NCBI GenBank assembly: GCA_963692945.1
Contig: OY843585.1
Span: 1,230,001-1,262,000 of the forward strand
Direction: 5' to 3'
From: Bdellovibrionales bacterium
Lineage (GTDB): Bacteria; Bdellovibrionota; Bdellovibrionia; Bdellovibrionales; UBA1609
Length of the DNA stretch: 32,000 nucleotides
The notes under the pieces are model-generated. The model was not told the DNA's origin, did not search any database, and saw nothing but the letters and a program-made list of their open reading frames with translations. The position numbers were made by a program, and so were the translations under genes. Position 1 is the stretch's first letter, and each line of letters opens with the position of its first letter. Shown here piece by piece: positions 1 to 28,829 of this stretch.

Positions 1-771
1 AAAGTTCCTAAGCCTCCTAGCTTTGTTAAATCAGAAGCCTATCTACCTTTAAAACCTATATTACCTCCTGAAGAACAAAGAAAAATTGTAAAACCAGAAG
101 TAAAAAAGAGAAAACCAGAATGTGCCTCTGTTCCTCTAATAGATGAAGCTGTTGTTTTTCAAAGTGTGGAAGCCCCTCAAATAGAATTTATGGATGAGCA
201 AAAACATCCTCCTTATGACAACTATGATTTAGTTATGGGAAAACCTGCTGGTGTTCTAGTCACAATAGATGTGAAAAGTATGGACAAGAAATCTAAAAAC
301 AAACTAAAACTCCATAGAGATTTTAGACTTTCTTTATCTATACAAGGTATGAAAATATCTAAATGCTTTAGAGAACCTTTTGCTAAAAGAAAAAATAAAT
401 CGTTTAAAACAATGAAAAAAGAGGATGGGATACCTTGTCATTTAAAAAAATCAGAAATTTTAAAAGGTAAATTTCAAGTCTTTTTTCCTCTTCCTATGAA
501 TGAAAATTTTATGAAAAGAGAACTGAGAAGTTTACCTATTAAAGTAACTCTTTTCCCTAGATGGCAAATTGACAATCCAAAATGCTTAAGTGAAAAGACA
601 GTGAATATAAACACTTGGAGTACACCAGATTTGAATTTAGGTTTTACAGCAGTGGATAGTTATAAATGTAATAAATATAAATCTGTTCCTCCTAAAATGG
701 TCGGTCAATTTGCTATAATTCAAATGAGGTTACAAATTATATACCAGCTATGTTTCCTATTAACAAAGTAA
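1..771 (+). CDS. Hypothetical Pro/Lys-rich protein, 5'-truncated by the window edge; possibly the N-terminal part of the downstream HExxH protein
   Basis: Frame 1 has no stop from nt 1 (KVPKPPSFVKSEAYLPLKPILPPEEQRKIVKPEV...) into the listed 166..771 ORF, so the GTG at 166 is unlikely to be the true start. No domain recognised by eye. The last 22 nt overlap the next ORF. Confidence 0.5.
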   Translation, partial: KVPKPPSFVKSEAYLPLKPILPPEEQRKIVKPEVKKRKPECASVPLIDEAVVFQSVEAPQIEFMDEQKHPPYDNYDLVMGKPAGVLVTIDVKSMDKKSKNKLKLHRDFRLSLSIQGMKISKCFREPFAKRKNKSFKTMKKEDGIPCHLKKSEILKGKFQVFFPLPMNENFMKRELRSLPIKVTLFPRWQIDNPKCLSEKTVNINTWSTPDLNLGFTAVDSYKCNKYKSVPPKMVGQFAIIQMRLQIIYQLCFLLTK

Positions 772-1841
772 ATACTGGCATATTAAATTCTATAAGAGGA
801 CTTTGTAATAATAGACCAGTGAAACATAAAAGGTTTCGCCACCCTATATCTATTGGTTTATTAAAAGATGCAGATAAGTTGTATAAACTTATACATAACA
901 ACTCCTATGATAAAGTAGTAGCCATTGCTTCAATTGAATACTTTGATTTTCATAATAGAAAAACTGCAGCAGGGACAGTTATAAGACCTCGTTCAAATGA
1001 GAACCTTATATCTAGGATTTTAAAAGGACGTTATATTGGTGGAAATAACAATGTGACTTTTATTAGAGAAGATCAAGAAAATACAGGAACAATATCTCAT
1101 GAGTTGGCACACACTCTAGGACAAGGAAAAGAACAATATAAAAAAGCAAAAAGTTACTGCAAAGAATTTAAGGGTTCTGATCCTAATCCTTGTGAAGATC
1201 TCAAAATTGCTCGTGGTTTAAAGGCTACTAAAAGTAACAGATGGAGATTTATAGAAAATAAATATAGCATTATGAATAGTAGTAACAAGATTGGAAATCA
1301 ATGGATAGATAGAGATACCTTTCAAAAAATCTTTTATTTTCTTACAAATTTTGGAACTCATTTTCCAAGAACAAGCATGTCCAATAACAGATTAAAAAAT
1401 AGAGAAGCCATTACTATTTCTGGTTTTTATAATGAAAAAGAAGATATTTTTGTTGTTCCTACAAAAAGAAAAGTCAAAACCTATAAATCTACCCCTACTT
1501 TTCCAACAGAGAAATATAAAGATACTCCTGTTTTAACTTTTCAGTTCAAATATAATGAAAAGATTCTCAAAGAAATAAAAAGACCAATTTTTGAAATGGA
1601 AATCAAAACTTTATATAGTGACAAACCTCCAGAAGTTAAACCTTTTGACTTTTCACATGCTATGGCTTCTTTTGAGATTCCTAGAAATCACAAAAACAAA
1701 GTTTTTCAAATTCTTGTTTTAAATCCAAAAGAAAAAATCATTTATGATTCTAAATTTAGAATCAAAAAAAATAAAAAACCTAAACAACAAAAAAAGAAAG
1801 ATAAAAATGGAAATTTTGCTTTTCTTGACAAAACTTATTAA
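750..1841 (+). CDS. Putative zinc metalloprotease (zincin, HExxH motif)
   Basis: Single HExxH site in the context TGTISHELAHTLGQGKEQY. Lys-rich C-terminal tail (RIKKNKKPKQQKKKDKNG). No Shine-Dalgarno before the ATG at 750, and frame 3 is open back to 696, so the start is uncertain. Family not recognised. Confidence 0.5.
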   Translation: MFPINKVNTGILNSIRGLCNNRPVKHKRFRHPISIGLLKDADKLYKLIHNNSYDKVVAIASIEYFDFHNRKTAAGTVIRPRSNENLISRILKGRYIGGNNNVTFIREDQENTGTISHELAHTLGQGKEQYKKAKSYCKEFKGSDPNPCEDLKIARGLKATKSNRWRFIENKYSIMNSSNKIGNQWIDRDTFQKIFYFLTNFGTHFPRTSMSNNRLKNREAITISGFYNEKEDIFVVPTKRKVKTYKSTPTFPTEKYKDTPVLTFQFKYNEKILKEIKRPIFEMEIKTLYSDKPPEVKPFDFSHAMASFEIPRNHKNKVFQILVLNPKEKIIYDSKFRIKKNKKPKQQKKKDKNGNFAFLDKTY

Positions 1842-1859
1842 AAGAGGGTTAATTAAGTT

Positions 1860-2414
1860 ATGAAAGTATTTTTTTGTTTATGGTTAGGATTGATTATTGT
1901 TTCTTTTGGTTGTTGGGAAAAAGATTATAAAAACTATCCTCATAAAAAATATTCAATTAGAGAACCTGTGACTTTTCCTGATAAGAATTTGTCTGAGATT
2001 AGACTCTCTGGTGATTATTCTACATCAGGAACTAAGGAAAAGTTTGAATATAAAGGAAGCAATCCCTGCTATTATGTAAAAAAACCTAAAAAAGGAGATA
2101 TTTTAGATAAAAATTTAAGAGCTAGGCTTTATGATAAAGATGGCAATATACTTACCGAAGATTTCTTGAGAGTCTGGGATACTTATGATAAATATTTTAG
2201 AGTAATATCTTATCTTCCTTATGATGACAATGGTCATGAGATTCGCATTGTAAGATTAAAAGACAATCAGGAGGTAACTCTTGAAACCATTGAATTTTTA
2301 TCTGAATCTCAATTAAAAGAATTAGATGGTGGAGGGAGGCTTAACATCACTATTAACCATGGTTGGTATTTTAAAAAAGAAGCCCAGTGCTTTATTCCTC
2401 CTCCTTATAGATAA
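1860..2414 (+). CDS. Paralogous lipoprotein family, copy 1 (184 aa)
   Basis: Signal peptide MKVFFCLWLGLIIVSFGC. Shares the motifs LSGDYS.SG.KEKFEY.G, LRARLYDKDGNILTEDFLR, YLPYDDNGHEIRIVRLKDN and CFIPPPYR with copies 2 and 4. Conserved AATTAAGTT leader before the ATG. Confidence 0.75.
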   Translation: MKVFFCLWLGLIIVSFGCWEKDYKNYPHKKYSIREPVTFPDKNLSEIRLSGDYSTSGTKEKFEYKGSNPCYYVKKPKKGDILDKNLRARLYDKDGNILTEDFLRVWDTYDKYFRVISYLPYDDNGHEIRIVRLKDNQEVTLETIEFLSESQLKELDGGGRLNITINHGWYFKKEAQCFIPPPYR

Positions 2415-2464
2415 ATTTTTGTAAATTCTGCACTTTTAACGGAGCAAAAATAAAAGATTTAAGT

Positions 2465-2485
2465 ATTAGAATTTTAAATTCTAAT
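2465..2485. promoter_or_regulatory. Perfect 10+1+10 palindrome in the copy 1 / copy 2 intergenic spacer
   Basis: attagaattt-t-aaattctaat. The arms are exact reverse complements. A 1-nt centre suits a dimeric DNA-binding site better than an RNA hairpin. AT-rich, so chance is not excluded. Confidence 0.25.
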
Positions 2486-2558
2486 AGAAAAGTTCTTTAC
2501 AAAGCTCCTCTTATTAAAAAAGAAAGCAATGCTAAAAAAACAGAAGGAGAATAAGAAG

Positions 2559-2603
2559 ATGAGATTGACAAAAATCACTGGAAAAGAGTTAATTAAGTTA
2601 TGA
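2559..2603 (+). CDS. Possible 14-aa leader ORF (MRLTKITGKELIKL) ending in an ATGA overlap with paralog copy 2
   Basis: AAGGAG (2544-2549) lies 9 nt upstream of the ATG at 2559. The TGA stop (2601-2603) overlaps the ATG (2600-2602) of the next gene. Very short, A-rich and unvalidated. Confidence 0.2.
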   Translation: MRLTKITGKELIKL

Positions 2604-3163
2604 AGATGTTTTTTTGTTTATGGTTAGGATTGATTATTGTTTCTTGTGGTTTTCTAGAAGAAGATTATAATTCTGATTTTTCTGATTTTTTTGAAGTTTA
2701 TAATTCTGATTTTCTTCCTGAACAATCTTTTACATATCCTGATAAAAACTTAGGGGAAATTCAACTCTCTGGTGATTATTCTGTATCAGGAATTAAAGAA
2801 AAATTTGAATATAGAGGAATTAGATACTGTTATTATACAACAAAACCTAAAAAAGATACTTTGGATAAAAATTTAAGAGCTAGGCTTTATGATAAAGATG
2901 GCAATATACTTACCGAAGATTTCTTGAGAACCAGTGAAATTTTTAGAACTAGTACTAGAATTAACTCTTATCTTCCTTATGATGACAATGGTCATGAAAT
3001 CCGTATCGTAAGGTTAAAAGATAATAAGGAAATAACTATTGAAACCATTGAATTTTTATCTGAAGCTCAATTAAAAGATTTTAATGAAGGAATTGGATTT
3101 AATCCCGGATGGTATTTTAGAGGAGGGAGAGCTCATTGTTTTATTCCTCCTCCTTACAGATAA
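2600..3163 (+). CDS. Paralogous lipoprotein family, copy 2 (187 aa)
   Basis: Lipobox-type signal peptide MKMFFCLWLGLIIVSCG. Near-identical to copy 4 over most of its length. Carries an internal ~33-nt duplication (YNSDFSDFFEV/YNSDFLPE). Confidence 0.75.
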   Translation: MKMFFCLWLGLIIVSCGFLEEDYNSDFSDFFEVYNSDFLPEQSFTYPDKNLGEIQLSGDYSVSGIKEKFEYRGIRYCYYTTKPKKDTLDKNLRARLYDKDGNILTEDFLRTSEIFRTSTRINSYLPYDDNGHEIRIVRLKDNKEITIETIEFLSEAQLKDFNEGIGFNPGWYFRGGRAHCFIPPPYR

Positions 3164-3184
3164 GTTTATTGTAAAAATTAAGTT

Positions 3185-4111
3185 ATGAGAGCATTTTTAT
3201 TATTCAGCTTTTTATTATCAACCTGTTTAGGTTTTACATCTTGCAATGAGAAAAATTTAGGAACTATTCATCAATCTTCAGGGTCAGAAAATAATCAAGA
3301 AGATATTTCAGAAGAAAAACCCAATGAAGAAGATATTAAGTATTTTTTTATTCGTATGGATTATGAAATTTCTATGTGGGATATAGATACTGATGATTAT
3401 TATGATTCTGATTCTGGTTGGGTTTATGTACCTCAAGATATAGAAGAGGAATTTAATATAGTAGATTCAAAAAGAAATGTAGTAGATATAATGAAGATGT
3501 TAAAATTAGTAAAAATACTATGTGATGATGAAGAGGATGAGTGCATGGAAGAGCCAGCAGAACATGGAGAATGTGAAAATCATTATAAATATGGCCATGA
3601 ATGTTACTATAAAACAAATACAAATATAATAGAAGAGCATAAACAAATTGCTGAAGACTATACTTCTAAGTATAAAAAATATTGCACAGACTTTCCAAAA
3701 AATGAGATAGAGGCTCCTATTTTTAATGACAATATTCGTATTAGATTGTATGACAGGAATGATAAGATAATTGCAGAAAGCAAAGTAAAAGGAGATGTTT
3801 CAGCTCCAAAAACCTATGATGGTAGAACCTATTTAACTGGGATTTTAAAACTTCCTCCAAAAGAACAAAGAGAGGGATTAAAATATCGTATAGTTCATTT
3901 AGATGAAAATGGAAATCCAAAACCTTATCTTTTTCAAGGAGTAAAAAAACCGTTTATATATTATTTCTTAGAAGGCGATATTGAGTCTTATTCTAGAATA
4001 CAAAAGTACTGGAACTACGTTAAAAATGAAGAAAGTAATGAGTGTTACCATAAACCACGACGAAAATCTTGCAACCTATTACCATCTACAAGATGCATAT
4101 TAAAATATTAA
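3185..4111 (+). CDS. Expanded, divergent member of the lipoprotein family, copy 3 (308 aa)
   Basis: Signal peptide MRAFLLFSFLLSTCLGFTSC. The C-terminal half keeps the family motifs (IRIRLYDRNDKIIAES versus LRARLYDKDGNILTED; YRIVHLDENGNP versus IRIVRLKDNKE). The N-terminal half is acidic with a Cys/His/Glu-rich insert. Same AATTAAGTT leader. Confidence 0.7.
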   Translation: MRAFLLFSFLLSTCLGFTSCNEKNLGTIHQSSGSENNQEDISEEKPNEEDIKYFFIRMDYEISMWDIDTDDYYDSDSGWVYVPQDIEEEFNIVDSKRNVVDIMKMLKLVKILCDDEEDECMEEPAEHGECENHYKYGHECYYKTNTNIIEEHKQIAEDYTSKYKKYCTDFPKNEIEAPIFNDNIRIRLYDRNDKIIAESKVKGDVSAPKTYDGRTYLTGILKLPPKEQREGLKYRIVHLDENGNPKPYLFQGVKKPFIYYFLEGDIESYSRIQKYWNYVKNEESNECYHKPRRKSCNLLPSTRCILKY

Positions 4112-4140
4112 AGAAAACACAAATTCACTTGAATTAAGTT

Positions 4141-4671
4141 ATGAAAATATTTTTTTATTTATGGTTAGGATTGGTTATTATCTCTTGTGGTTTTCTAGAA
4201 GAAGATTATAATACTGATTTTCATTTGTTTCCTGAACTATCTTTCACATATCCTGATAAAAACTTAGGGGAAATTCAACTCTCTGGTGATTATTCTGTAT
4301 CAGGAATTAAAGAAAAATTTGAATATAGAGGAATTAGATACTGTTATTATACAACAAAACCTAAAAAAGATACTTTGGATAAAAACTTAAGAGCTAGGCT
4401 TTATGATAAAGCAGGTAATATACTTTCAGAAGATTTTTTGAGAACCAGTGAAATTTTTAGAACTAGTACTAGATTTAACTCTTATCTTCCTTATGATGAC
4501 AATGGTCATGAAATCCGTATCGTAAGGTTAAAAGATAATAAGGAAGTAACTATTGAAACCATTGAATTTTTATCTGAAGCTCAATTAAAAGATTTTAATG
4601 AAGGGATTGGATCTAATCATGGGTTGTATTTCAACAGAAAAACTCATTGCTTTCAGTATCCACATCATTAG
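4141..4671 (+). CDS. Paralogous lipoprotein family, copy 4 (176 aa)
   Basis: Signal peptide MKIFFYLWLGLVIISCG. Near-identical DNA to copy 2 except for a short central tract and a divergent C-terminus (NRKTHCFQYPHH instead of GGRAHCFIPPPYR). Confidence 0.75.
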   Translation: MKIFFYLWLGLVIISCGFLEEDYNTDFHLFPELSFTYPDKNLGEIQLSGDYSVSGIKEKFEYRGIRYCYYTTKPKKDTLDKNLRARLYDKAGNILSEDFLRTSEIFRTSTRFNSYLPYDDNGHEIRIVRLKDNKEVTIETIEFLSEAQLKDFNEGIGSNHGLYFNRKTHCFQYPHH

Positions 4672-4710
4672 AATCTACTATCTTTATAGAAAAAAAGGTT
4701 AATGTAAATT

Positions 4711-4752
4711 ATGAAAATATTTTTATTGTTAGGATTGGTCGCAATTCATTAA
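4711..4752 (+). pseudogene. Remnant of a fifth paralog 5' end (MKIFLLLGLVAIH, then stop)
   Basis: atgaaaatatttttattgttaggattggtc resembles the copy 4 start atgaaaatatttttttatttatggttaggattggtt. It is preceded by ttaatgtaaatt, which resembles the family leader, and hits a stop after 13 codons. Confidence 0.35.
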
Positions 4753-4853
4753 ATCCTTTTTTAAATGTTAATACATTAGAAAAACTAGTTTTAATGCAAA
4801 TACCAAAAACAAAAATAATCTGTATCTTACAAATTTTTAAGAATGCTTTGATC

Positions 4854-5858
4854 TTAAAACTTGGTCTTTAAAGAAAAAATCCATTCCTTTTTTTTAAGAA
4901 TAGCATCTTGTTCTTTCAACCATTCCACTGTAAAAAATAAATTTTTTGTGAAATAAAAATCTCCTCTGAAAAGATATTCTTCCATAAAATATTGATCTTT
5001 TTGTAATACACTCTCAGTTCTTCCAAACAAAAAGCCAAAAGACCATTTTTTCCATTTTAAATAAGGAAAAACATAGTAGGTCAATGAGTTTTGATGAGGC
5101 TCACTCTTTTTCACCCCCCAAAACTCTCCTCTAAAACCCAAAAGCAAAGATTTAATATCAAAAAATAAATCTGAACCAAAACCTAAAGATCGTATTTTTC
5201 CTTCTAAAAAAAACTTTTGTTGAAAGTAACTGGCAAAAAAACTTTTGTTGAATTGCTCATAAATAAAACTCGTAGTGAAGATAGGATATAGATCTGACTT
5301 TTGAATCAAATCAGTTCCTCTTTGAAGAGATGATGACTGCAAACTTGTCTTCCAATAAAAAGAAGGAACCACCTCTCTTTCTAACATTACTCCAATAGCT
5401 CTATCTCCTTCAAAAAAGAGAGTTTTATGCATTAAAGTTTTTTTGGAAAACAGATTTTCATTTTCTATCACATAGGACACAGGATAAGAAAAATAACCAA
5501 ACTGAAAACTAAACGGAGTAAAGTTTTGTTGCTTCACAAAAAAATTATCAATCGCATAAGCCCAATCTCCCTTTTGATAAGAAAACTCAATTTCCATCTT
5601 GATAAAATTACTTTTTGAAAAAGGATAATAAAACTCCATTTCTGTATAAGGAATCTCTGCTGACCAAGAATTGATTAAATTATTTTTTATTAAAGCCAAA
5701 GAACTTTCTAAATGAAAAGAAATATCAAAGTCTTTGTTATCTTTTTGTAAATCTTGTGTATCTAATGGATTAGATAAGTTTAAAGAAATTTCAGACCTGT
5801 TTTTATTAGCAAAAACTGTTTGTGCAAAAAATAAAATAAAAAATAAAATAGTTTTCAT
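4854..5858 (-). CDS. Putative outer-membrane beta-barrel protein
   Basis: Cleavable signal peptide MKTILFFILFFAQTVFA. Aromatic-rich alternating segments throughout. C-terminal residue is Phe (..IFSLKTKF), typical of BAM substrates. Family not recognised. Confidence 0.55.
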   Translation of the reverse strand: MKTILFFILFFAQTVFANKNRSEISLNLSNPLDTQDLQKDNKDFDISFHLESSLALIKNNLINSWSAEIPYTEMEFYYPFSKSNFIKMEIEFSYQKGDWAYAIDNFFVKQQNFTPFSFQFGYFSYPVSYVIENENLFSKKTLMHKTLFFEGDRAIGVMLEREVVPSFYWKTSLQSSSLQRGTDLIQKSDLYPIFTTSFIYEQFNKSFFASYFQQKFFLEGKIRSLGFGSDLFFDIKSLLLGFRGEFWGVKKSEPHQNSLTYYVFPYLKWKKWSFGFLFGRTESVLQKDQYFMEEYLFRGDFYFTKNLFFTVEWLKEQDAILKKKEWIFSLKTKF

Positions 5859-5897
5859 AAAAAAATTTAATTCAATCTCAAAAAGCTTTATTTGAAC

Positions 5898-6524
5898 TTA
5901 TAAAACTCTTGGAGATATTCTAGCTCCTTCAATCAAATTTGAGTGAGACAATTTAAGCCCCCATTTTACACCCTGACCTTTTGTATAAAAAATCAACCCT
6001 TCTGAAAGAGAGTCAACCAAGAGATTTTCATTACTTAAAATTCCTACCTTATGTTTTAAGATTCCATTTCTATTTACAAAATTTTCCCATATTTGAATAT
6101 GAAAACCGTAACTCACTCCATTTTCCACCTCTACAGTGAAATCTATTTCATTGTTATTTAAAAAATAATTTTCTTTTTTAAGTAAAAGTTTATCTGGGTA
6201 ACCTTGAATAGAAACTTTTACAACCAAATGAAATGCTTTTCTTTCAAACTGAACTCTCACTCCATCTTCCAAATCAAATCCTCTAAAATGACTAAATAAT
6301 TCCAACTGAGACATTTCAGAAGGAAGATAGGCTTTAATCAAGTAGTATTCCTTTGATAGAACTCCTGAAATAGGTTTCTTAGATAGAAATCTCATAACAG
6401 AATTGTCATTTTGAATAAGATTCATTTCTTCTATAGACAAATAGGTTTCAGACATAAAAAAAGAATTGCAAGAACAAAAACAAAATAAAATCTTAATAAA
6501 AATAATTACTAATGGTTTTCTCAT
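5898..6524 (-). CDS. Hypothetical lipoprotein (208 aa)
   Basis: N-terminus MRKPLVIIFIKILFCFCSCN has a signal peptide with Cys-containing lipobox-like end. Sits 39 nt upstream of the beta-barrel gene and 22 nt downstream of the ankyrin gene. Confidence 0.55.
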   Translation of the reverse strand: MRKPLVIIFIKILFCFCSCNSFFMSETYLSIEEMNLIQNDNSVMRFLSKKPISGVLSKEYYLIKAYLPSEMSQLELFSHFRGFDLEDGVRVQFERKAFHLVVKVSIQGYPDKLLLKKENYFLNNNEIDFTVEVENGVSYGFHIQIWENFVNRNGILKHKVGILSNENLLVDSLSEGLIFYTKGQGVKWGLKLSHSNLIEGARISPRVL

Positions 6525-6546
6525 CTCTTACTCTTTTTTAAAATGA

Positions 6547-7773
6547 CTAAATACTACCTTCTAATTGTTGTCTTTTAAATTGAAAAATCTCTTTAGGAGT
6601 TTGACCGTCATGATTGACCTGCTCTATATCACCATATTTTTTAAGTTGCTCATAAAAAAAAGAATCTACTAATCTTGCTGAAATGTGCAAACTACTTTCT
6701 CCTTGTTTATTGATAGAATTGACATGATCTGCAATTCCTAACCAAGTTAATCTTGTCTGACTTTCCATAAGAAGAACAAAAATCTCTTTTATCCATTCAT
6801 CATGATAAGATTTTGAGACATCTAAAGTTAATAAAAAGTTTTGAAGAGGAGTGTTTCCTTTATTGTCTGGCAAAATATAATCCGTCCATTGGCAAGAAGA
6901 CAGAATACGAATCCCATCAAAAAACATATTTTTTGCACTAAAATTTATAGCTGTCATTCCCTCTTCATCCTGAGTATTTATCAAATCATCAACATCAAGT
7001 CCTATGGGCTTTCCATACCTTTGGACACCTCTCCAAAATAAAATAGGATATTTATAATAAAATTCTTTATGTCCCCACTCTTCTTTTTTTACGCAATTTT
7101 GTTCTAAACCCCAACGAAGTAAATCGCTATTTTGATCTCTCACAGCTGTATGTAAAATACTTTGATCTTTATTATTTTTAAGATACTGAAATTTTCTAAA
7201 AGGATATTCAAAAGAACCCCGCCAATACTCATGCTTTAAGGCTTCAGCCGTAATGTAATTTTTTGCTACATGAATAGCTCGCTCCCCTGCATGAGTTACC
7301 CTATCCAAATCAGAAAATTCATAATCAGATAAAATAAAATCCTGTTTGTTATCAAAAAAACCATTTGCTAAAAATTTGATTAAACTCACATAGCCTTTTT
7401 GAGAAGCTAAATAGATATAACCTTCCCCTTGATGATTTGTCTTCAAATAATGTTGAGGGCTTAATTGTTTTGTAATAAATAAAGCTCCCTTTAAATTGTA
7501 AAATTTTATAGCCAAAGCCAAAGCTGTATCTCCGTTGGCATTGACATCAAAAAGATACTGCCCGTTTTGATCTATTATTTCCTGTAAAACTTGATTCTTA
7601 GATTTATCTACTAAAGCTACAAAGAGTGGATTAGGGAAAAGGGCTTGTCTTTGTTCAGGTGAGAAAGAATCACTCCGATGGCTTGAACTCTCTTGAACGT
7701 TTTGCCAATCTGCACAGGACAATAACCAACTACAGAAAAAAATTATTATTATTATTTGTTTCATTGATTTCAC
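6547..7773 (-). CDS. Ankyrin-repeat lipoprotein (408 aa)
   Basis: Lipobox signal MKSMKQIIIIIFFCSWLLSC. Several ankyrin-like units: NANGDTALALAIKFYNLKGALFI, NHQGEGYIYLASQKGYVSLIKFL, DQSILHTAVRDQNSDLLRWGLEQ, DEEGMTAINFSAKNMFFDGIRIL, DNKGNTPLQNFL, NKQGESSLHISARL...GDIEQVNHDGQTPKEI. Confidence 0.7.
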   Translation of the reverse strand: MKSMKQIIIIIFFCSWLLSCADWQNVQESSSHRSDSFSPEQRQALFPNPLFVALVDKSKNQVLQEIIDQNGQYLFDVNANGDTALALAIKFYNLKGALFITKQLSPQHYLKTNHQGEGYIYLASQKGYVSLIKFLANGFFDNKQDFILSDYEFSDLDRVTHAGERAIHVAKNYITAEALKHEYWRGSFEYPFRKFQYLKNNKDQSILHTAVRDQNSDLLRWGLEQNCVKKEEWGHKEFYYKYPILFWRGVQRYGKPIGLDVDDLINTQDEEGMTAINFSAKNMFFDGIRILSSCQWTDYILPDNKGNTPLQNFLLTLDVSKSYHDEWIKEIFVLLMESQTRLTWLGIADHVNSINKQGESSLHISARLVDSFFYEQLKKYGDIEQVNHDGQTPKEIFQFKRQQLEGSI

Positions 7774-7792
7774 ACTCCCCTCCTCAGTTTTA

Positions 7793-8446
7793 TTATTTGC
7801 AATTTATATACTCCTTAATAGAATATTTTTCCTTAACGACTCTTTGAATTTTATAAAGTGAAAAAGCATTTGGTTGATCTTTAAAATCTGAAATACTTTT
7901 TATTATAAGATTCAATCTAGTCCAATCCAATTCTTTCAAAGAATGGGTTAAATAAGTTACCATATGTTGACTAAAAGTAGAAAGAATAATTTTTAAAATC
8001 ACTTCTGTATCCAAAGCCTCATAATCCTTAGCTTTGCCACTCTTTAAAAAACGTACGATTTCAGGAAAAGATTTCATAGCATTAAATAACTTAGGATTCA
8101 TTGAATCCGAATCCATTAACTTCATACGAGTTTTTAAATCTGACTGGTGTGGAAATTCTATTTGTTTGAGAGTTTCTTTTTCAAAATAAGTAATAGCTTC
8201 CTCCAAAACAGAAACATAAAAATTCATCTCTGTATCAGAAAGTATCCCTTTTAAAAGAGGCATCTCTTTATAAACAGAAGAAAAAAGCTCTTTAGAGTAA
8301 GCACTTGTCCATTTGTCTTTTAAAAATAGATTGTACTTCACAGGATCTGATCTAAAAACAGTCTTGCACTTTTCCAATAAACTAGAACTAGCAGATGAGT
8401 AAAAAACAAATATTATAAAAAATAATAGAGTTAAATATTTTATCAT
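7793..8446 (-). CDS. Hypothetical secreted protein (about 217 aa from the internal Met)
   Basis: The Met at 8446 (MIKYLTLLFFIIFVFYSSASS = signal peptide) forms an ATGA overlap with the stop (8445-8443) of the upstream gene. The listed start at 8473 is probably too long. No recognisable domain. Confidence 0.55.
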   Translation of the reverse strand: MIKYLTLLFFIIFVFYSSASSSLLEKCKTVFRSDPVKYNLFLKDKWTSAYSKELFSSVYKEMPLLKGILSDTEMNFYVSVLEEAITYFEKETLKQIEFPHQSDLKTRMKLMDSDSMNPKLFNAMKSFPEIVRFLKSGKAKDYEALDTEVILKIILSTFSQHMVTYLTHSLKELDWTRLNLIIKSISDFKDQPNAFSLYKIQRVVKEKYSIKEYINCK

Positions 8447-10251
8447 TGATATTTCTCCACAATTTTTTTGCATTCAGGAATTTTTGTTTTAAATGGCAAA
8501 AAACTAAAGACAGTCTTTTTTTCTTTGGATAAAGACATTGTTTGTATATGATACTTTTGTGAGTTTAATTTTTTAAAAAGAAATTCTTTATTTAAATCAT
8601 TACTTTTTAAGAAAGTTTGAACCTCATGGAGATACGTAAAAAAAGCCAAAAGTTTTTCCATAGATTCATATTTATAAAATTGGATTTTTGTTTTATCTTT
8701 TATCACAGCAACAGAAAGTAAAAAATCAGAAAAATTATAAACTAAATGAAAGAAACGACCAAAAGCCCATTGCAGTTTTAGCTTCTCTGTAAAAGACATT
8801 TGATGTTTTTGTGATAAAATAAGAGAAGACATTTTCAAGTATTTTGTGAACAAAGCTCCTAAAGTCATTTCAAGAACATATACACTGGCCACACGTTCTT
8901 TGGTAGGTAAACTCGTATTAAAAATGACTTCTATATCTTTTAAAAAAAATTGAATGGCTTCTTTTTTATCATCCAATTTGTCATTATTTTCTAAATTTAT
9001 TTTTTTAGACAAAAACTCTTCTATCAAGCCATCTCTAATGATATCAGGATGGACTTGGGAAACTTCAGTTTGAGATTTTGAAATCAGCATTCTCTCTATG
9101 ACATTTTCCTGAAGAGAAAGAGGCCATAAAAGATTTTTATCTATTATTTTATCTGGCATTCCTTTTCCTGCCATATAACCTATGCGACTTTTTCTGGATT
9201 TCAATAACAAATATCTTTTGAATTTTGCACCAAAAAAATCTTTTCTGTTCACTTTAGAAAGATTTTCAATTTTATTTTGAGATTTTGAAATTTGTTTTAT
9301 TATGGATTGTCTCTCTTTTGAGTCAGTCTGTTGTTGTAACTTTTCCTCTAAATATTTTATTTTTTTAAAAAAAGGATCTGTATTTCTTTTTAATTTTTCA
9401 ATCCACAACAAACGATGTCCTTTTCTATGAAATAAACTTTTAGGGCCAGTTTTGTTAACTTTTTCCAACTCCTCCTTCCTAAATATCAATGCTTGATCAA
9501 TATGAAAGAATACTCTTTTCCTACTTTTTTTAATCTGACGAGACAACCAAGCTGTTTTAAACAAAACAAGTGATCCACTTGCATCCATTTGCCTTCCATA
9601 AGAAAAAACTCTTGTATATTTTTGAAATTTTCTGGTTAAAGGAAAAATCATGACATCAATAGCATTACAAAAAATATGTGCTCCTTTAATTCCCATAAAA
9701 ACAGATAAAATAGTTTCAGCCACTTCTGCACTCAACTTTAGCCCTGCTGCAACATAACCATAATTTGCCGTGAGATAAGCACCTTGATAACTGATCTCTT
9801 TTCCCATATGTTTCCCTGGTTCTAAAAATTTTTGTCTTAAAAAACTTTTAGGCAAATAATTTTTTGCTTCTTGAACCATTAAATCAGCATCTAAATCGCA
9901 AGAGCAGTGTTTTTCAATTTCTTCTATATAAATTCTGACCCAAGCTTTTGTTAAATTCCAAAAACCTTGATTTAAATAAATTTTATTCTTCCCCACTTTA
10001 TAAAATGGAACAACGGAATTGTCTTGAACATGAGTTAATAAATCAGGAGATAGTAAAATAGCTTTTTCAAAAACTTTTAAAGCAACTTCAATTTCTTTTT
10101 CATGCAATTCATCATGAGAAAAAGAGATGAAAGAAAAAAAAGTCAGAAATAAAACTAAAACTTTTACAATTCCAATATTTAAAAAATTTATTTTTATAAG
10201 TTTGAACTTTGAAAAAACCTTATAAAAAAGAGAAAAATCACTAAAAGACAT
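8443..10251 (-). CDS. Hypothetical membrane-anchored protein (602 aa)
   Basis: N-terminal hydrophobic segment IGIVKVLVLFLTFFSFISF. A second hydrophobic patch (YVAAGLKLSAEVAETILSVFMGIKGAHIFCNAIDVMIFPL). Lys-rich coiled-coil-like middle. No motif I can assign. First gene of a five-gene co-oriented cluster. Confidence 0.55.
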   Translation of the reverse strand: MSFSDFSLFYKVFSKFKLIKINFLNIGIVKVLVLFLTFFSFISFSHDELHEKEIEVALKVFEKAILLSPDLLTHVQDNSVVPFYKVGKNKIYLNQGFWNLTKAWVRIYIEEIEKHCSCDLDADLMVQEAKNYLPKSFLRQKFLEPGKHMGKEISYQGAYLTANYGYVAAGLKLSAEVAETILSVFMGIKGAHIFCNAIDVMIFPLTRKFQKYTRVFSYGRQMDASGSLVLFKTAWLSRQIKKSRKRVFFHIDQALIFRKEELEKVNKTGPKSLFHRKGHRLLWIEKLKRNTDPFFKKIKYLEEKLQQQTDSKERQSIIKQISKSQNKIENLSKVNRKDFFGAKFKRYLLLKSRKSRIGYMAGKGMPDKIIDKNLLWPLSLQENVIERMLISKSQTEVSQVHPDIIRDGLIEEFLSKKINLENNDKLDDKKEAIQFFLKDIEVIFNTSLPTKERVASVYVLEMTLGALFTKYLKMSSLILSQKHQMSFTEKLKLQWAFGRFFHLVYNFSDFLLSVAVIKDKTKIQFYKYESMEKLLAFFTYLHEVQTFLKSNDLNKEFLFKKLNSQKYHIQTMSLSKEKKTVFSFLPFKTKIPECKKIVEKYQ

Positions 10252-13692: not shown

Positions 13693-16434
13693 ATGAGTTC
13701 AGATATTTTTAGGCCAGAAGACCAGATTCAAAGGCCTAACTTAGAGTACTCCGAAGAACTCTATCAACTTTTCTTAGAAGACCCACAAAAAGTTGAAGAT
13801 TCTTGGAGATGGTTTTTCCAAGGCATGAATGCTGTCAAAACTTCTCAATTCAGCCAAACAGAAGATATACAAACAGAACTCAAAGTTTTTCAACTGATTC
13901 GTGCCTATAGAGACCATGGAAGTTTAAAAGCTAAACTTGACCCTTTAGAAATAGACAAAGATAACGGATTTCCAACATTGGAAGACTTTCAACTCAGCAA
14001 GAAAGATCTAGACAAAAAATTCTCTGTGATAAAATATCTCTTCAATAAAGATCAAACCTTAAAACAAGTATTAGATTTTTTAGAAAAAACTTACTGCCAT
14101 AGTTTGACTCTTCAAGTTGGTGGTTGCCATCCCAACATTCGTCAATGGTTTTTTAACGAATTTGAAATTAAAAAATTCCAACTCAATAAAAAAGAAAAAC
14201 AAAATGCTTTTTCCCATCTTATTGCTGCCGAAAATTTAGAAAGATTCCTACAATTTAATTTTTTAGGGAAAAAACGATTTTCTCTGGAAGGTTTAGATGT
14301 CCTAATCCCTATCCTAGAGTATCTCCTGGAAAAAGGAACAAACTTAGAAATGAAAAACCTTATTCTAGGTATGACACACAGAGGTCGAATCAATGTTCTT
14401 ATCAATTTCATGAAAAAAAATCCAAAACTTATTTTTTCAGAATTTGAAGACAACCCAAACCATCTTCTTTTTAGTGAACTCCGTTTTACAGGAGATGTAA
14501 AATATCATCTAGGGTTTTCTTCTCTAAGAGAAACCTCCCATGGATCCTGTCACCTTTACTTAGGCTATAACCCGAGTCATTTAGAAAGTGTTAATCCTGT
14601 GATTTGTGGAATAACAAGAGCCGTTCAAAGAAGAAATAAAGACACCGCTGAAAGAAAAACAGCCGTTCCTGTTCTCATCCATGGTGATGCCGCTTTTTGT
14701 GGGCAAGGTTCTACAAGTGAAACTTTGCAACTTTCTCAACTTAAGGGTTACACTGTTGGTGGTTCTATCCATATTATTTTAAACAATCAAGTGGGTTTTA
14801 CAACTACACCAAAAGATAGTCGCTCTACTCTTTTTGCTTCCGATTTATCAAAATCTATCAAAGCCCCTGTCCTCATTGTCAATGCCGATGATGTCCCATC
14901 TTGTCTCCATGCTATAGACATTGCTCTTCGGTTTCGTTATAAATTTGGTCAAGATATTTTTATTGAATTGGTTGGCTATAGAAAATACGGACACAATGAA
15001 GGAGATGAACCTTCTTTCACTCAACCTTCTATGTATAAAAAAATGAAAAATCTTCCAAGCGTTGTTCAAAAATACAAAGAATCTCTTTTACAAGAAGGAA
15101 GTCTTACAAAAGAAGAAGCAACAAAAATTCACAATCAATACAATCATTTTTTAGAAGAAGCTTTAAAAAATCTTCGTGAATCTAAAAACACATTTAAAAT
15201 AAAAGATTTTATAGGAACCCAAGTTTTTTCCCCTCAAGCCTCTTTAGAAAAAACCAATACAACAAAAAAACATCTTACAGAAGTTTTAGAATCTTTTAGC
15301 ACAGAACCTGACTCTATTCATATTCATCCAAAAGTAAAAAAGTTGATTGAAAAGCGTAAAAAATCCATTGAAGAGGATAAACTGGATTGGGCTCTTTGTG
15401 AATTAGCCAGCTATGGAACTTTATTAAAAGATGGATTCTCTATCCGATTGACTGGACAAGATATTAAAAGAGGCACTTTTTCCCATCGTCATGCCATTTA
15501 TTATGACTATGAAACAGAAGAGGAATTTTCTCCTCTTAAACAACTCAATAAAAATCAAGAGTGTTGTTTATACAACTCTCCTCTTTCTGAAATGGCTGCC
15601 CTTGCTTTTGAGTATGGAAACTCTTGTTTAGCTCCAGACTTCTTGACTCTATGGGAAGCCCAGTTCGGGGATTTTGCAAATGGAGCTCAAATCATTATTG
15701 ATCAATTCATTGCTTCAGGAGAAATGAAATGGCTTCAACAAACAGATATAACTCTTTTACTTCCTCACGGTTACGAAGGACAAGGCCCTGAACATTCAAG
15801 TGCCTACCTAGAAAGATTTTTACAACTTTGTGCACAAGATAATATGAGAGTGTGCAACTTAAGCACACCAGCCAATCTTTTTCATGCTTTGAGACGACAA
15901 AAGATGTTGCTTAAAAATAAAAAACCACTGATTATCATGACCCCAAAATCTCTCTTAAGACACCCAGATGTTATATCCTCTAAAAAAGATCTCATTGAAG
16001 GTCAATTTGAAGAAGTGATTTGGGATAAAGAGATAAAAGATCAAAGAGATATACAAACTTTGATTCTATGTAGTGGAAAAGTTTTTTATGACCTTAAATC
16101 TCATCTTGCTCAACAGCAATCCTTTCAAAAACGAAATCAATTTGCTATTTTCCGTATTGAACAACTCTACCCTTTTCCTGACATTCAACTCAATCCTATT
16201 TTAAATGGATTTCAAAATTTAAAAAAGATAGTCTGGCTTCAAGAAGAAACTAAAAATCGTGGAGCTTGGACATATATCAAGGCCAAACTAGAATTTTTAC
16301 TCAAAGCCATAGGTCAAAATATAGAAATTCAATACATAGGACGAAAAGAAGGGGCTGCGTCTGCTGAAGGATCCGAAAGACTACATAAAAAAGAACAAGA
16401 AAAGATAATGAAAAATTGTCTCTCAGCCATTTAA
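13693..16434 (+). CDS. sucA: 2-oxoglutarate dehydrogenase E1 component
   Basis: 913 aa. Typical E1o segments GMTHRGRINVL, IHGDAAFCGQG, NNQVGFTT, GYRKYGHNEGDEPSFTQP, WEAQFGDFANGAQ and LLPHGYEGQGPEHSS. Confidence 0.95.
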   Translation: MSSDIFRPEDQIQRPNLEYSEELYQLFLEDPQKVEDSWRWFFQGMNAVKTSQFSQTEDIQTELKVFQLIRAYRDHGSLKAKLDPLEIDKDNGFPTLEDFQLSKKDLDKKFSVIKYLFNKDQTLKQVLDFLEKTYCHSLTLQVGGCHPNIRQWFFNEFEIKKFQLNKKEKQNAFSHLIAAENLERFLQFNFLGKKRFSLEGLDVLIPILEYLLEKGTNLEMKNLILGMTHRGRINVLINFMKKNPKLIFSEFEDNPNHLLFSELRFTGDVKYHLGFSSLRETSHGSCHLYLGYNPSHLESVNPVICGITRAVQRRNKDTAERKTAVPVLIHGDAAFCGQGSTSETLQLSQLKGYTVGGSIHIILNNQVGFTTTPKDSRSTLFASDLSKSIKAPVLIVNADDVPSCLHAIDIALRFRYKFGQDIFIELVGYRKYGHNEGDEPSFTQPSMYKKMKNLPSVVQKYKESLLQEGSLTKEEATKIHNQYNHFLEEALKNLRESKNTFKIKDFIGTQVFSPQASLEKTNTTKKHLTEVLESFSTEPDSIHIHPKVKKLIEKRKKSIEEDKLDWALCELASYGTLLKDGFSIRLTGQDIKRGTFSHRHAIYYDYETEEEFSPLKQLNKNQECCLYNSPLSEMAALAFEYGNSCLAPDFLTLWEAQFGDFANGAQIIIDQFIASGEMKWLQQTDITLLLPHGYEGQGPEHSSAYLERFLQLCAQDNMRVCNLSTPANLFHALRRQKMLLKNKKPLIIMTPKSLLRHPDVISSKKDLIEGQFEEVIWDKEIKDQRDIQTLILCSGKVFYDLKSHLAQQQSFQKRNQFAIFRIEQLYPFPDIQLNPILNGFQNLKKIVWLQEETKNRGAWTYIKAKLEFLLKAIGQNIEIQYIGRKEGAASAEGSERLHKKEQEKIMKNCLSAI

Positions 16435-16450
16435 GTATTAAGGTTTATTT

Positions 16451-17725: not shown

Positions 17726-17736
17726 GAGATATAAAA

Positions 17737-25459: not shown

Positions 25460-25492
25460 ACTGTAAAAATCTCCACTTTACATATTATATCC

Positions 25493-27695: not shown

Positions 27696-28240
27696 AAAGG
27701 AATCTCTTTTTGTAAAGTATTTGCATTTCCTAAAGAAGGAACCATTTTTGAAATTATATTTTGAATGTAACTAGGAACATCTCCATAATTTACAAAATAA
27801 GACACCAAAGAATAATCTGCACTTCTATTTGCTTTTTCATAAGTAACGGTCAATTTTAACTCTACCACAGCATTGGTCAAAACTTCTATTATCAAATGAA
27901 CCACTTCCCTATTACTATCTGTTTGAGGAAGACCTTGAAGTGATAATAAAGTTAAAGCGGAAGGCATTTTCAAGCTTTGAGTCTCATATCTCCAAATGTA
28001 ATTTTTTTCCTCTTCAAAAACTCCTTTATCTTCAGAAGGTAATTTAAAAATATTTTCATTTTTATATTCAGCCTCTATCTCAGACATTTTTTGCTGTAAT
28101 AATTGAGCTGCTTTTTGAATGTTCCGACTTTTTTCAACTCTCTTAAAACTTCCCGAAGTCACTTGAGAAATAATAGCTATCATTCCTCCAAAAATAAGAA
28201 TAGAGCCTAAAACTTCAAGTAAAGTAAAACCTCTCTTCAT
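27692..28240 (-). CDS. gspI: Type II secretion minor pseudopilin I
   Basis: MKRG/FTLLEVLGSILIFGGMIAI is a canonical prepilin cleavage and methylation site. 4-nt overlaps with both neighbours. Confidence 0.6.
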   Translation of the reverse strand: MKRGFTLLEVLGSILIFGGMIAIISQVTSGSFKRVEKSRNIQKAAQLLQQKMSEIEAEYKNENIFKLPSEDKGVFEEEKNYIWRYETQSLKMPSALTLLSLQGLPQTDSNREVVHLIIEVLTNAVVELKLTVTYEKANRSADYSLVSYFVNYGDVPSYIQNIISKMVPSLGNANTLQKEIPL

Positions 28241-28788: not shown

Positions 28789-28829
28789 AGTACCCCTTTA
28801 AAAGGTCAGATAAGATCTCAAAGAAAATT

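What the first reader, a model, noticed from the sequence alone, without database searches (positions are those of the whole stretch)
1860..4752. Tandem array of four paralogous lipoprotein genes (plus a decayed fifth start) directly behind an HExxH protease gene
Four consecutive + strand genes encode paralogs with a lipoprotein-type signal peptide (MK.FFCLWLGLIIVSCG). They share a conserved core: PDKNL.EI.LSGDYS.SG.KEKFEY.G...CYY..KPKK, LRARLYDKDGNIL.EDF, YLPYDDNGHEIRIVRLKDN.E.T.ETIEFLSE.QLK and a C-terminal HCFIPPPYR. The 308-aa member keeps only the C-terminal-half motifs. I do not recognise this family. The array begins 18 nt after the stop of a gene carrying a zincin HExxH site. Arrays of small exported paralogs beside a secreted enzyme are the layout seen for immunity/inhibitor arrays and for variable surface-lipoprotein families. 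Either role would be new for this family, and both are inference.
Basis: partly seen in the sequence, partly recalled or inferred. Interest (0 to 1): 0.7.

Follow-up and report, generated by a model that had tools for sequence, protein, structure and literature searches.

The report
Secreted zinc-protease gene with lipoprotein-partner array
A previously undescribed small lipoprotein gene always sits directly behind a previously undescribed HExxH (zinc-protease-like) gene in a group of little-known Bdellovibrio-related bacteria, and in this window it has been duplicated into an array of four; the lipoprotein is most likely a membrane-anchored inhibitor that shields the cell from its own secreted enzyme, but that role is inferred, not shown.

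Summary
Four intact + strand genes (1860-2414, 2600-3163, 3185-4111, 4141-4671) and a 13-codon stub (4711-4752) encode paralogous lipobox proteins, starting 18 nt after a gene with an invariant HExxH site.

Neither the lipoprotein nor the HExxH protein matches any Pfam, NCBIfam, PADLOC or PDB entry. The lipoprotein family is rare: 103 clusters among 1.84 billion representative proteins. The named source records are Bdellovibrionales or Oligoflexia metagenome-assembled genomes (MAGs).

The main new result is linkage. In all 12 cassettes with readable flanks, the lipoprotein gene lies directly downstream of an HExxH-family gene on the same strand (gaps -4 to 129 nt). The pair duplicates as a unit, both dispersed and in tandem, and the two partners diverge together. 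Arrays or protease 3' relics recur in four other loci. The only protease gene without a partner is a truncated one.

The best reading is a secreted zincin with a cognate membrane-anchored lipoprotein, most likely an inhibitor or self-protection factor. This is functionally analogous to the potempin/KLIKK-peptidase system but unrelated in sequence. Inhibition is untested.

The predicted all-beta core has no significant structural match. The protease model was too poor to classify. The protease gene in the window carries an apparent frameshift.

The parts
1..722 (+). HExxH protein gene, upstream part (frame 1). It runs off the left edge of the window. It holds the end of the basic linker and the beta-rich middle domain (SVEAPQIE...YDLVMGKPAGVLV).
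   Evidence: ORF 166-771 is open to base 1. It is collinear with the contiguous homologues L002 1343-3598, L007 51-2333 and L010 6440-9601.
717..1841 (+). HExxH protein gene, downstream part (frame 3): the catalytic region and a C-terminal beta-sandwich with a Lys-rich tail. HELAH is at 1098-1112 and the invariant Glu at 1131-1133. An apparent -1 frameshift near 717-722 separates it from the upstream part.
   Evidence: A profile of the protease family matches 717-1838 in frame 3 at E 1.7e-159. HEL[AST]HxxGQx[RK]ExY is invariant or conservatively substituted in 12 homologues. The frame change is seen.
1860..2414 (+). Lipoprotein paralog 1 (184 aa; lipobox ...VSFG|C).
   Evidence: (P0003).
2444..2572 (+). 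Probable relic of the last ~45 codons of a protease gene (..LSIRILNSNRKVLYKAPLIKKESNAKK..), interrupted by a stop. It lies where a protease 3' end would precede paralog 2.
   Evidence: Protease profile positions 335-380 match here with i-E 7e-4, but only 7.1 bits. The DNA aligns with 1700-1859. Much stronger relics occur in L011 and L012 (E 2.5e-22 and 4.7e-36).
2600..3163 (+). Lipoprotein paralog 2 (187 aa; lipobox ...IVS|C).
   Evidence: (P0001). This is the protein modelled.
3185..4111 (+). Divergent lipoprotein paralog 3 (308 aa; lipobox ...FTS|C). It has an acidic N-terminal extension, and only the C-terminal core is recognisably homologous.
   Evidence: hhalign probability 94.7%, E 5.9e-8. 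Family profile hit at 3563-4060, E 8.7e-6. Lipobox.
4141..4671 (+). Lipoprotein paralog 4 (176 aa). It is 88% identical to paralog 2, with an altered C-terminus (HCFQYPHH).
   Evidence: (P0002).
4711..4752 (+). Truncated fifth start (MKIFLLLGLVAIH*). It marks the right end of the array.
   Evidence: Repeat family D4 copy 4705-4736 is 81% identical to the reference leader plus start. Sequence.
1854..1885 (+). Conserved leader plus start (TAAGTTATGAAA.TATTTTTTT...) repeated before every copy: 1854, 2594, 3179, 4135 and 4705.
   Evidence: the repeat finder family D4, five copies at 72-100% identity.

Best explanation
The locus is a two-gene cassette: an exported HExxH zincin (probable metallopeptidase) followed by its cognate lipoprotein. 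Here the lipoprotein gene has been amplified by tandem duplication into four live copies plus a stub.

Shown:
- The pair is strictly syntenic, closely spaced and on one strand.
- It duplicates as a unit.
- The paralogs exchange sequence by gene conversion.
- Lipoprotein copies persist where the neighbouring protease copy has been reduced to a 3' relic.

Inferred mechanism:
- The enzyme enters the periplasm through Sec. Full-length homologues carry signal peptides.
- It probably leaves through the type II secretion system encoded in the same window.
- The lipoprotein is lipid-anchored and probably disulfide-bonded (two invariant Cys).
- It binds the enzyme and blocks it while it is in, or returns to, the producer's envelope.
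- It would therefore act as a self-protection inhibitor, as potempins do for KLIKK peptidases.
- Extra or divergent copies would widen the range of related enzymes that are neutralised.
For: Linkage. In 12 of 12 cassettes with readable flanks, the lipoprotein gene directly follows an HExxH-family gene on the same strand. These are the window, L001, L002, L005, L007, L009, L010, L011, L012, L013 and L014 A and B. Gaps run from -4 to 129 nt. L006 also has a protease C-terminus upstream. Linkage holds whether loci were found through the lipoprotein or through the protease.

The one exception. The only protease gene without a partner (L015) is truncated after the HExxH region and sits in a restriction/SIR2 island beside an ISL3 transposase.

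Duplication as a unit.
- Three dispersed cassettes lie in one 1.78-Mb chromosome.
- Two complete tandem cassettes lie in L014, and both partners are strongly diverged between them.
- Identity of catalytic regions and of lipoproteins correlates across 9 pairs (r 0.72, Mantel p about 0.001).

Asymmetric retention.
- L002 has 1 protease and 3 lipoproteins.
- The window has 1 protease, 4 lipoproteins and a protease relic.
- Protease C-terminal relics follow the lipoprotein gene in L011 and L012.

Export.
- All four window copies and 62 of 81 family members with an intact N-terminus pass a strict lipobox rule.
- Two Cys are invariant across 48 members.
- The full-length enzymes L010 and P0111 start with Sec-type signal peptides.
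- T2SS genes E, F, G and K are in the window.

Enzyme. HEL[AST]HxxGQx[RK]ExY is invariant across homologues with 33% mean column identity. There are weak, sub-threshold hits only to metzincin families: Astacin, M8 and Reprolysin.

The copies are alive. They are intact ORFs with dN/dS of 0.43-0.51. No terminator-like site lies inside the array.

Precedent. Potempins are outer-membrane lipoproteins co-transcribed with secreted peptidases. They inhibit those peptidases and protect the producer's surface (PMC9890683).
Against: - No binding or inhibition was tested, and no complex could be modelled.
- The lipoprotein model (core pLDDT above 90) has no significant match to any solved structure, including known peptidase inhibitors (best Foldseek E 0.08, TM below 0.35). 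Fold gives no support.
- The enzyme's catalytic region could not be modelled (pLDDT 44.6).
- The position of the metzincin third His is Arg or Lys, so even peptidase activity is motif-level inference.
- Adjacency and co-duplication are equally expected for a private foldase or an anchor.
- In this window the protease gene is frameshifted. If that is real, the four lipoproteins have no local enzyme to inhibit.
- Gene order (partner downstream) is the reverse of the potempin operons.
Confidence: 0.45

Rival explanations
1. The lipoprotein is a private accessory factor of the enzyme rather than an inhibitor. It could be a periplasmic, membrane-anchored foldase or steric chaperone, like the Lif foldase encoded just downstream of T2SS-secreted lipases (established knowledge of the Pseudomonas/Burkholderia lipA-lif operons). 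It could also be a pilot or anchor that holds the enzyme on the cell surface.
For: It rests on the same strict downstream adjacency, tight spacing and co-duplication. The enzyme is Sec-exported and a T2SS is present. No recognisable propeptide family was found in the enzyme, which leaves room for a chaperone acting in trans.
Against: One enzyme gene with three or four live partner copies (window, L002) is not expected for a one-to-one foldase. Nor is retention of the partner after loss of the enzyme copy. The partner is all-beta, unlike helical Lif foldases. None of this is decisive.
Confidence: 0.25
2. The lipoproteins are the substrates or cargo: a variable family of surface lipoproteins that the neighbouring peptidase processes or sheds. 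The array would provide surface diversity.
For: It is a paralogous array with variable N-terminal linkers, one variable loop and variable C-termini around a conserved core. The leader and signal-peptide regions are conserved. Relatives come from sponge metagenomes or sponge-named MAG bins, where surface variation could matter.
Against: No switching machinery was found: no flanking inverted repeats, no long simple repeats, and all copies have their own start and leader. Most genomes carry one lipoprotein per enzyme gene. dN/dS is below 1. Gene conversion homogenises the copies rather than diversifying them.
Confidence: 0.12
3. There is no functional coupling. The repeats are a decaying by-product of local duplication next to a pseudogenised enzyme gene.
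For: The window's protease gene is frameshifted. Relics and a stub are present. Protease genes are fragmented in several related MAGs.
Against: Linkage is conserved across loci with only 40-50% identity. The lipoprotein ORFs are intact and under purifying selection. The frameshifts lie at different sites, and those in L011-L013 lie in homopolymer runs, as expected of long-read errors.
Confidence: 0.06

Closest known systems
Potempin / KLIKK-peptidase system of Tannerella forsythia (PMC9890683)
   Same: Small lipoproteins with conserved signal peptides are encoded in tight bicistronic pairs with secreted peptidases, including metzincins. There are several pairs per genome and some orphan lipoprotein ORFs. 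Their demonstrated role is self-protection of the outer membrane by specific inhibition.
   Different: There is no sequence similarity, and the PDB fold search, whose library runs to April 2026, gave no significant match of any kind. Here the partner gene is downstream rather than upstream. The mature protein is larger (about 150-230 aa versus 98-132). It forms tandem arrays of close paralogs. The hosts are Bdellovibrionota with a T2SS rather than Bacteroidota with a T9SS, and the enzyme has no KLIKK C-terminal domain. Inhibition is unproven here.
Periplasmic inhibitors of serralysins (aprA-aprI / Inh; MEROPS I38) and other operon-encoded bacterial peptidase inhibitors (staphostatins, emfourin). 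Comparison is from established knowledge.
   Same: A small beta-rich protein is encoded next to the secreted peptidase it neutralises, protecting the producer's own compartment.
   Different: Those inhibitors are soluble, not lipoproteins, and single-copy. No sequence or structural match to them was found.
Toxin-immunity loci with orphan immunity arrays (polymorphic toxins)
   Same: The partner gene lies immediately downstream. There are arrays of partner paralogs and 3' fragments of the enzyme gene between them.
   Different: The enzyme has a Sec signal peptide and no T5, T6 or T7SS trafficking domain. Its conserved catalytic region is central, not a swappable C-terminal toxin tip.
Bd3459/Bd3460 self-protection pair of Bdellovibrio bacteriovorus (PMC4686830)
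   Same: A member of the same phylum protects itself from its own secreted hydrolase with an adjacent, exported binding protein. Two members of the present family are fused to ankyrin repeats (P0066, P0058).
   Different: Bd3460 is an ankyrin-repeat protein acting against a DD-endopeptidase. It is unrelated in sequence to either family here.
Astacin-type metzincins (Pfam PF01400, MEROPS M12A)
   Same: HExxHxxG followed by Glu at +11, a preceding edge strand (GGSWNVAF) and a downstream S-I-M motif resemble astacin's HExxHxxGFxHE and SxMHY. Sub-threshold hits occur.
   Different: The third zinc-binding His is Arg or Lys in all members. The Met is Val in four of twelve. Scores lie below the Pfam cut-off.

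Membership tests
Bacterial lipoprotein (signal peptidase II substrate; PROSITE PS51257-type signal) | Basic n-region, hydrophobic h-region and a lipobox [LIVMFWSTAG]2-[LIVMFYSTAGCQ]-[AGS]-C with the Cys at about residue 15-35 | tested here: met
   All four window paralogs match, with Cys at 18, 16, 20 and 16. So do 62 of 81 family members with an intact N-terminus.
Bacterial lipoprotein (signal peptidase II substrate; PROSITE PS51257-type signal) | Actual lipidation and membrane anchoring | not testable with these tools
   This needs globomycin sensitivity, palmitate labelling or fractionation.
Zincin metallopeptidase | HExxH zinc-binding/catalytic motif conserved across the family | tested here: met
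   H375, E376 and H379 (P0111 numbering) are invariant in 12 homologues with 33% mean column identity. Window codons are 1098-1112.
Zincin metallopeptidase | Zincin fold of the catalytic domain | tested here: inconclusive
   The AlphaFold model has pLDDT 44.6 and about 30 over the catalytic region. The Foldseek result is therefore meaningless.
Metzincin / astacin (M12A, PF01400) | HExxHxxGxxH with a third His, plus a strictly conserved Met-turn; score above the Pfam gathering threshold | tested here: not met
   The position of the third His is R or K. Met is replaced by Val in 4 of 12. Astacin scores 15.9 bits against a cut-off of 22.5. Best E is 0.0043 in 3 of 10 members. PDB astacins score E 0.56-1.
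Potempin / KLIKK-peptidase system | Small lipoprotein encoded in a tight pair with a secreted peptidase | tested here: met
   12 of 12 cassettes, with gaps of -4 to 129 nt. Co-transcription itself was not tested.
Potempin / KLIKK-peptidase system | Lipoprotein ORF immediately upstream of the peptidase gene; peptidase carries a T9SS C-terminal domain ending KLIKK | tested here: not met
   The lipoprotein is downstream in every locus. The enzyme C-terminus is a beta-sandwich plus a Lys-rich tail with no KLIKK domain. Compared with PMC9890683.
Potempin / KLIKK-peptidase system | Five-stranded OB or eight-stranded up-and-down beta-barrel homologous to PotA-E | tested here: not met
Potempin / KLIKK-peptidase system | Specific, potent inhibition of the linked peptidase | not testable with these tools
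   This needs enzyme assays or at least complex prediction.
Polymorphic toxin-immunity system | N-terminal trafficking domain (T5/T6/T7SS, Rhs, PAAR, LXG and so on) and a variable C-terminal toxin domain | tested here: not met
   Pfam finds none. The N-terminus is a Sec signal followed by a Cys-rich and a basic region. The catalytic region is internal and conserved.
Polymorphic toxin-immunity system | Immunity gene directly downstream, with orphan immunity copies and toxin 3' fragments | tested here: met
   Window, L002, L011 and L012.
Phase-variable surface lipoprotein family | Switch elements such as invertible promoter repeats, long simple-sequence tracts or silent cassettes | tested here: not met
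   Only AT-rich chance inverted repeats were found. Each copy has its own leader and ATG. T7 runs occur in the signal-peptide codons, but the genome has only about 29% G+C.
Known anti-phage defence systems (PADLOC) | Match to a PADLOC model | tested here: not met
   No hits for three lipoproteins or three enzymes at E up to 0.1.

The most novel reading that the evidence does not exclude
The two families form a new, Sec/T2SS-dependent attack-and-immunity module of host-associated or predatory Bdellovibrionota. The enzyme would be a new metzincin-like peptidase family with an unusual zinc site (HExxHxxGxx[RK]E), released against prey, competitors or host. The lipoprotein would be a new-fold, tight-binding inhibitor. 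Its tandem and orphan copies would act as an immunity repertoire against the enzymes of related strains.
Probability: 0.2. Interest if true: 0.7.

Novelty: new variant of a known kind. Interest (0 to 1): 0.5.

Why it matters
If the reading is right, this adds a second, independently evolved example of a strategy so far described in detail only for Tannerella potempins: a bacterium arms itself with a secreted peptidase and coats its own envelope with a dedicated lipoprotein inhibitor.

It would also define two new protein families at once.
- One is a zincin with a non-canonical zinc-site motif.
- The other is an all-beta lipoprotein with no structural relative found in the PDB.

Both occur in an uncultured, small-genome branch of Bdellovibrionota that turns up in sponge and other metagenomes. 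New specific metallopeptidase inhibitors are of practical interest.

The strict one-to-one gene pairing gives a clean, cheap experimental test: express each pair and measure inhibition and cross-inhibition.

Tried and rejected
Family and structure searches that found nothing useful:
- Pfam, NCBIfam and PADLOC scans of the lipoproteins and the enzymes gave nothing above threshold.
- Profile searches against PDB sequences gave nothing significant for the lipoprotein or the enzyme.
- Foldseek of the lipoprotein model against the PDB and BFVD gave no significant match.
- AlphaFold of a full-length enzyme (P0111) failed for the catalytic region. One row of that alignment (window 1-720) was misaligned. 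Its Foldseek search was uninformative.

Collection searches that found nothing:
- Two scans of JGI metagenome contigs, by lipoprotein and by enzyme, found nothing.
- Look-ups of the window's own proteins gave no record. The missing 5' part of the enzyme gene and the source organism could not be read directly.

Ideas considered and rejected:
- The lipoprotein is derived from a domain of the enzyme. hhalign gave probability 0.9%.
- The split of the enzyme gene is a conserved programmed frameshift. The shifts in the window, L011, L012 and L013 lie at different sites, and those in L011-L013 lie in homopolymer runs.
- Phase variation by inversion.
- The 308-aa copy belongs to the same divergent subtype as L014 lipoprotein B. 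Only a 15-residue hairpin aligns.
- The C-terminal Cys-His acts as a zinc-binding switch. His is not conserved in the window copies.
- P0082 (1860 aa) is a homologue. It shares only the RxRLYDxxGNL hairpin, within 40-residue repeats.


Full report
**1. What is in the sequence**

The window has about 30% G+C. On the + strand, ORF listing gives four consecutive genes:
- 1860-2414 (184 aa)
- 2600-3163 (187 aa)
- 3185-4111 (308 aa)
- 4141-4671 (176 aa)

Copies 1, 2 and 4 are 65-88% identical in protein. In a search of 5.8 billion proteins they retrieve each other at E 4e-67 to 5e-93.

The 308-aa gene is a genuine but remote member. A profile of the family aligns to its residues 164-244 with probability 94.7% and E 5.9e-8. 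A 48-member family profile hits 3563-4060 at E 8.7e-6.

A fifth start at 4711-4752 (MKIFLLLGLVAIH, then stop) carries the same leader as the other four. The repeat finder groups 1854, 2594, 3179, 4135 and 4705 into one family of 32-nt 'TAAGTTATGAAA..TTTTTTT' elements.

All four proteins satisfy a strict PROSITE-type lipobox rule.

The upstream gene ends at 1841, 18 nt before the first ATG. It encodes HELAH at 1098-1112.

**2.

*The HExxH gene is split.* Frame 1 is open from base 1 to 771 and frame 3 from 750 to 1841. Both parts are collinear with single, uninterrupted homologues elsewhere, for example L002 1343-3598 (751 aa) and L010 6440-9601 (1053 aa). The change of frame lies near 717-722.

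Related genes in other long-read assemblies are also split. The splits are at different positions, and those in L011-L013 lie in homopolymer runs. I take this as assembly error or ordinary decay, not a programmed shift. I cannot tell which of the two applies here.

*The spacer 2444-2572 resembles the last ~45 codons of the protease family.* It reads LSIRILNSNRKVLYKAPLIKK against the family's LRIxVLSPKGxxIYSAPVPKK. The profile i-E is 7e-4 but the score is only 7.1 bits. On its own this is weak, but far clearer relics occur in the same relative context in other genomes (section 4).

**3. Neither gene belongs to a described family**

Pfam, NCBIfam and PADLOC give nothing above threshold for the lipoproteins or for the enzyme, including full-length homologues.

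An exhaustive profile search of 1.84 billion representative proteins finds only 103 clusters of the lipoprotein family at E up to 1e-3, and 87 at E up to 1e-10. Nearly all are 130-260 aa. Of the 81 with an intact N-terminus, 62 have a strict lipobox. Two Cys, two Tyr and one Pro are invariant over 48 members.

The records that name an organism are 'Bdellovibrionales bacterium' MAGs and 'Oligoflexia bacterium'. One contig comes from a sponge metagenome. The window's own genome (a 1.56-Mb contig) could not be looked up. Its assignment to this group is therefore inference from its nearest relatives.

**4. The decisive result is linkage**

I collected loci in two independent ways: starting from lipoprotein homologues and starting from enzyme homologues. 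I then scanned all six frames with profiles of both families.

In all 12 cassettes with readable flanks, the lipoprotein gene lies directly downstream of an HExxH-family gene on the same strand. These are the window, L001, L002, L005, L007, L009, L010, L011, L012, L013 and L014 A and B. Stop-to-start distances are -4, -1, 1, 9, 15, 18, 46, 120 and 129 nt where measurable. L006 shows the enzyme's C-terminus upstream as well.

No other neighbour is conserved.

| Locus | Arrangement |
|---|---|
| OZ241877.1 (1.78 Mb) | three dispersed cassettes |
| L014 | two complete cassettes in tandem; both enzyme and lipoprotein strongly diverged between A and B |
| L002 | one enzyme gene followed by three lipoprotein genes, 79-87% identical |
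| L011, L012 | clear relics of the enzyme's C-terminal domain after the lipoprotein gene (E 2.5e-22 and 4.7e-36) |
| L015 | truncated enzyme gene, no partner; embedded among restriction, SIR2 and ISL3 transposase genes |

Across nine pairs, the identity of catalytic regions and of lipoproteins correlates (r 0.72, Mantel p about 0.001). Much of that signal comes from one recent paralogous pair.

**5. Dynamics of the window's array**

- dN/dS between copies is 0.43-0.51, indicating relaxed purifying selection.
- Copies 2 and 4 are 98-100% identical in DNA over most of their length.
- In codons 91-110 they drop to 88%, while copies 1 and 2 are 100% identical there. This mosaic is best explained by gene conversion.
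- Variation concentrates in the linker after the lipid-modified Cys, one loop (codons about 111-125) and the C-terminal 25 residues.
- No terminator-like site lies within 1-5200.
- There is no inverted-repeat architecture of the kind used for phase variation.

**6. What the proteins look like**

*Enzyme.*
- Full-length forms begin with a Sec-type signal peptide (L010, P0111).
- Long forms then have a Cys-rich module and an extremely basic low-complexity linker, followed by a beta-rich middle domain.
- The region with the invariant HEL[AST]HxxGQx[RK]ExY comes next, with two invariant Cys, an S-I-M/V motif and WIDR[DE]TxQK.
- A C-terminal beta-sandwich with a Lys-rich tail completes the protein (this is the only confidently modelled part).
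- The catalytic region could not be modelled.
- Sub-threshold similarities point only to metzincins: Astacin, leishmanolysin and reprolysin.
- The position of the third zinc-binding His is Arg or Lys, and the putative Met-turn Met is Val in a third of members.

I call it a putative zincin of a new family, not an astacin.

The lipoprotein is not related to any domain of the enzyme.

**7. How it most likely works**

Shown:
- The cassette is conserved.
- It duplicates as a unit, and its two partners diverge together.
- Retention is asymmetric in favour of the lipoprotein.
- Both partners carry export signals.
- T2SS genes gspE, F, G and K lie at 25.5-31.8 kb in the same window.

Inferred:
- The enzyme folds in the periplasm on its way out.
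- The lipid-anchored partner binds and silences it there or on the cell surface, protecting the producer's envelope.
- Extra copies extend protection to related enzymes.

The closest documented system is the potempin/KLIKK-peptidase network of Tannerella forsythia. There, small outer-membrane lipoproteins are co-transcribed with secreted peptidases, inhibit them and protect the bacterial surface (PMC9890683). In the same phylum as our organism, Bdellovibrio protects itself from its own secreted DD-endopeptidase with an adjacent ankyrin protein (PMC4686830). Two members of the present family are fused to ankyrin repeats.

I put the inhibitor/self-protection mechanism at about 0.45. The main rival, at 0.25, is a Lif-like private foldase or anchor. 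It explains adjacency equally well, but it does not easily explain three or four live copies per enzyme, or the survival of the partner after loss of the enzyme copy. A substrate or variable-surface reading (0.12) and pure decay (0.06) fit less well.

**8. Membership versus analogy**

The system works like a peptidase/lipoprotein-inhibitor pair on the available evidence, but it is not a member of the potempin family.
- Gene order is reversed.
- There is no sequence or detectable fold similarity.
- The enzyme has no T9SS C-terminal domain.
- The phylum is different.

It shares the 'immunity downstream, orphan copies, toxin 3' fragments' layout of polymorphic toxin loci. It lacks their trafficking domains and their swappable C-terminal toxin.

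**9. Verdict**

This is a real, non-random feature. It comprises two undescribed families in an obligate gene pair, here with the partner amplified. I classify it as a new variant of a known kind of system. Interest is moderate (0.5).

The pairing is clean and experimentally tractable, and the lipoprotein core may be a new inhibitor scaffold. Against that, function is inferred, the lineage is uncultured, and the local enzyme gene may be broken.

Noticed in passing
window 700-760: There is an apparent -1 frameshift in the HExxH gene (frame 1 to frame 3 near 717-722, within ..QFA|NSNEV..). Homologous genes in L011, L012, L013 and L009 are also split, but at different sites. Those in L011-L013 lie in A or T homopolymer runs, which suggests long-read assembly errors or independent decay.
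   Followed up: partly
window 23726-31843 (- strand): A type II secretion gene cluster is present. GspE (30542-31843), GspF (29305-30510), GspG (28830-29327) and GspK (25493-26761) are confirmed by Pfam. Pseudopilin-like ORFs lie between them, and two unassigned ORFs (23726-25459 and 22885-23724) could be GspL/M. This is a possible export route for the HExxH protein.
   Followed up: partly
window 4854-8473 (- strand): A run of exported proteins of unknown function sits directly beside the array. It includes a 334-aa signal-peptide protein ending in Phe (porin-like C-terminus), a 208-aa lipobox protein (5898-6524) and a 408-aa ankyrin-repeat protein with a lipobox (LLSC; 6547-7773; Ank_2 E 1.8e-11). 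It also includes a 226-aa signal-peptide protein. Ankyrin-repeat fusions to the lipoprotein family exist elsewhere (P0066, P0058).
   Followed up: no
window 2451-2499: An AT-rich near-palindrome (24-nt arms, 75% complementary, 1-nt loop) lies inside the spacer/relic after paralog 1. It may be a weak transcriptional stop or chance in AT-rich DNA.
   Followed up: no
L002 7692-9914; L010 6440-7700; L009 6478-7722: The Cys-rich N-terminal module and the basic linker of the long enzyme forms also occur as a separate 740-aa protein in L002. This suggests a modular N-terminal domain of unknown role. The linker is extremely Lys/Ser/Arg-rich.
   Followed up: no
L015 1-16852; L013 1-3312 and 11358-14583; L001 11455-13446; L010 10643-11977: Several cassettes sit next to restriction-modification or other defence genes: MethyltransfD12, RE_AlwI, N6_N4_Mtase, MvaI_BcnI, SIR2 and an nSTAND NTPase. 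There is also an ISL3 transposase. The cassette therefore tends to lie in variable genomic islands.
   Followed up: no
P0082 (1860 aa): A large protein carries about twenty 40-residue repeats (..DDGRVRLYDANGNLMSTIFT..). It matches only the RxRLYDxxGNL hairpin of the lipoprotein profile. This is probably a shared beta-hairpin motif rather than homology.
   Followed up: partly
P0096 (74 aa): A fragment from another sample starts MKIFLLLGLVIVSFGCWEEDY.., matching the window's truncated fifth start (MKIFLLLGLV..). It continues into the family's core. A relative may therefore still carry the fifth copy intact.
   Followed up: no
window 13693-19134 (+ strand): An ordinary sucA-sucB-lpdA (2-oxoglutarate dehydrogenase E1, E2, E3) operon is confirmed by Pfam. 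Together with the heme A synthase-like gene at 19134-19982, it indicates an aerobic, TCA-competent organism despite the small genome.
   Followed up: partly
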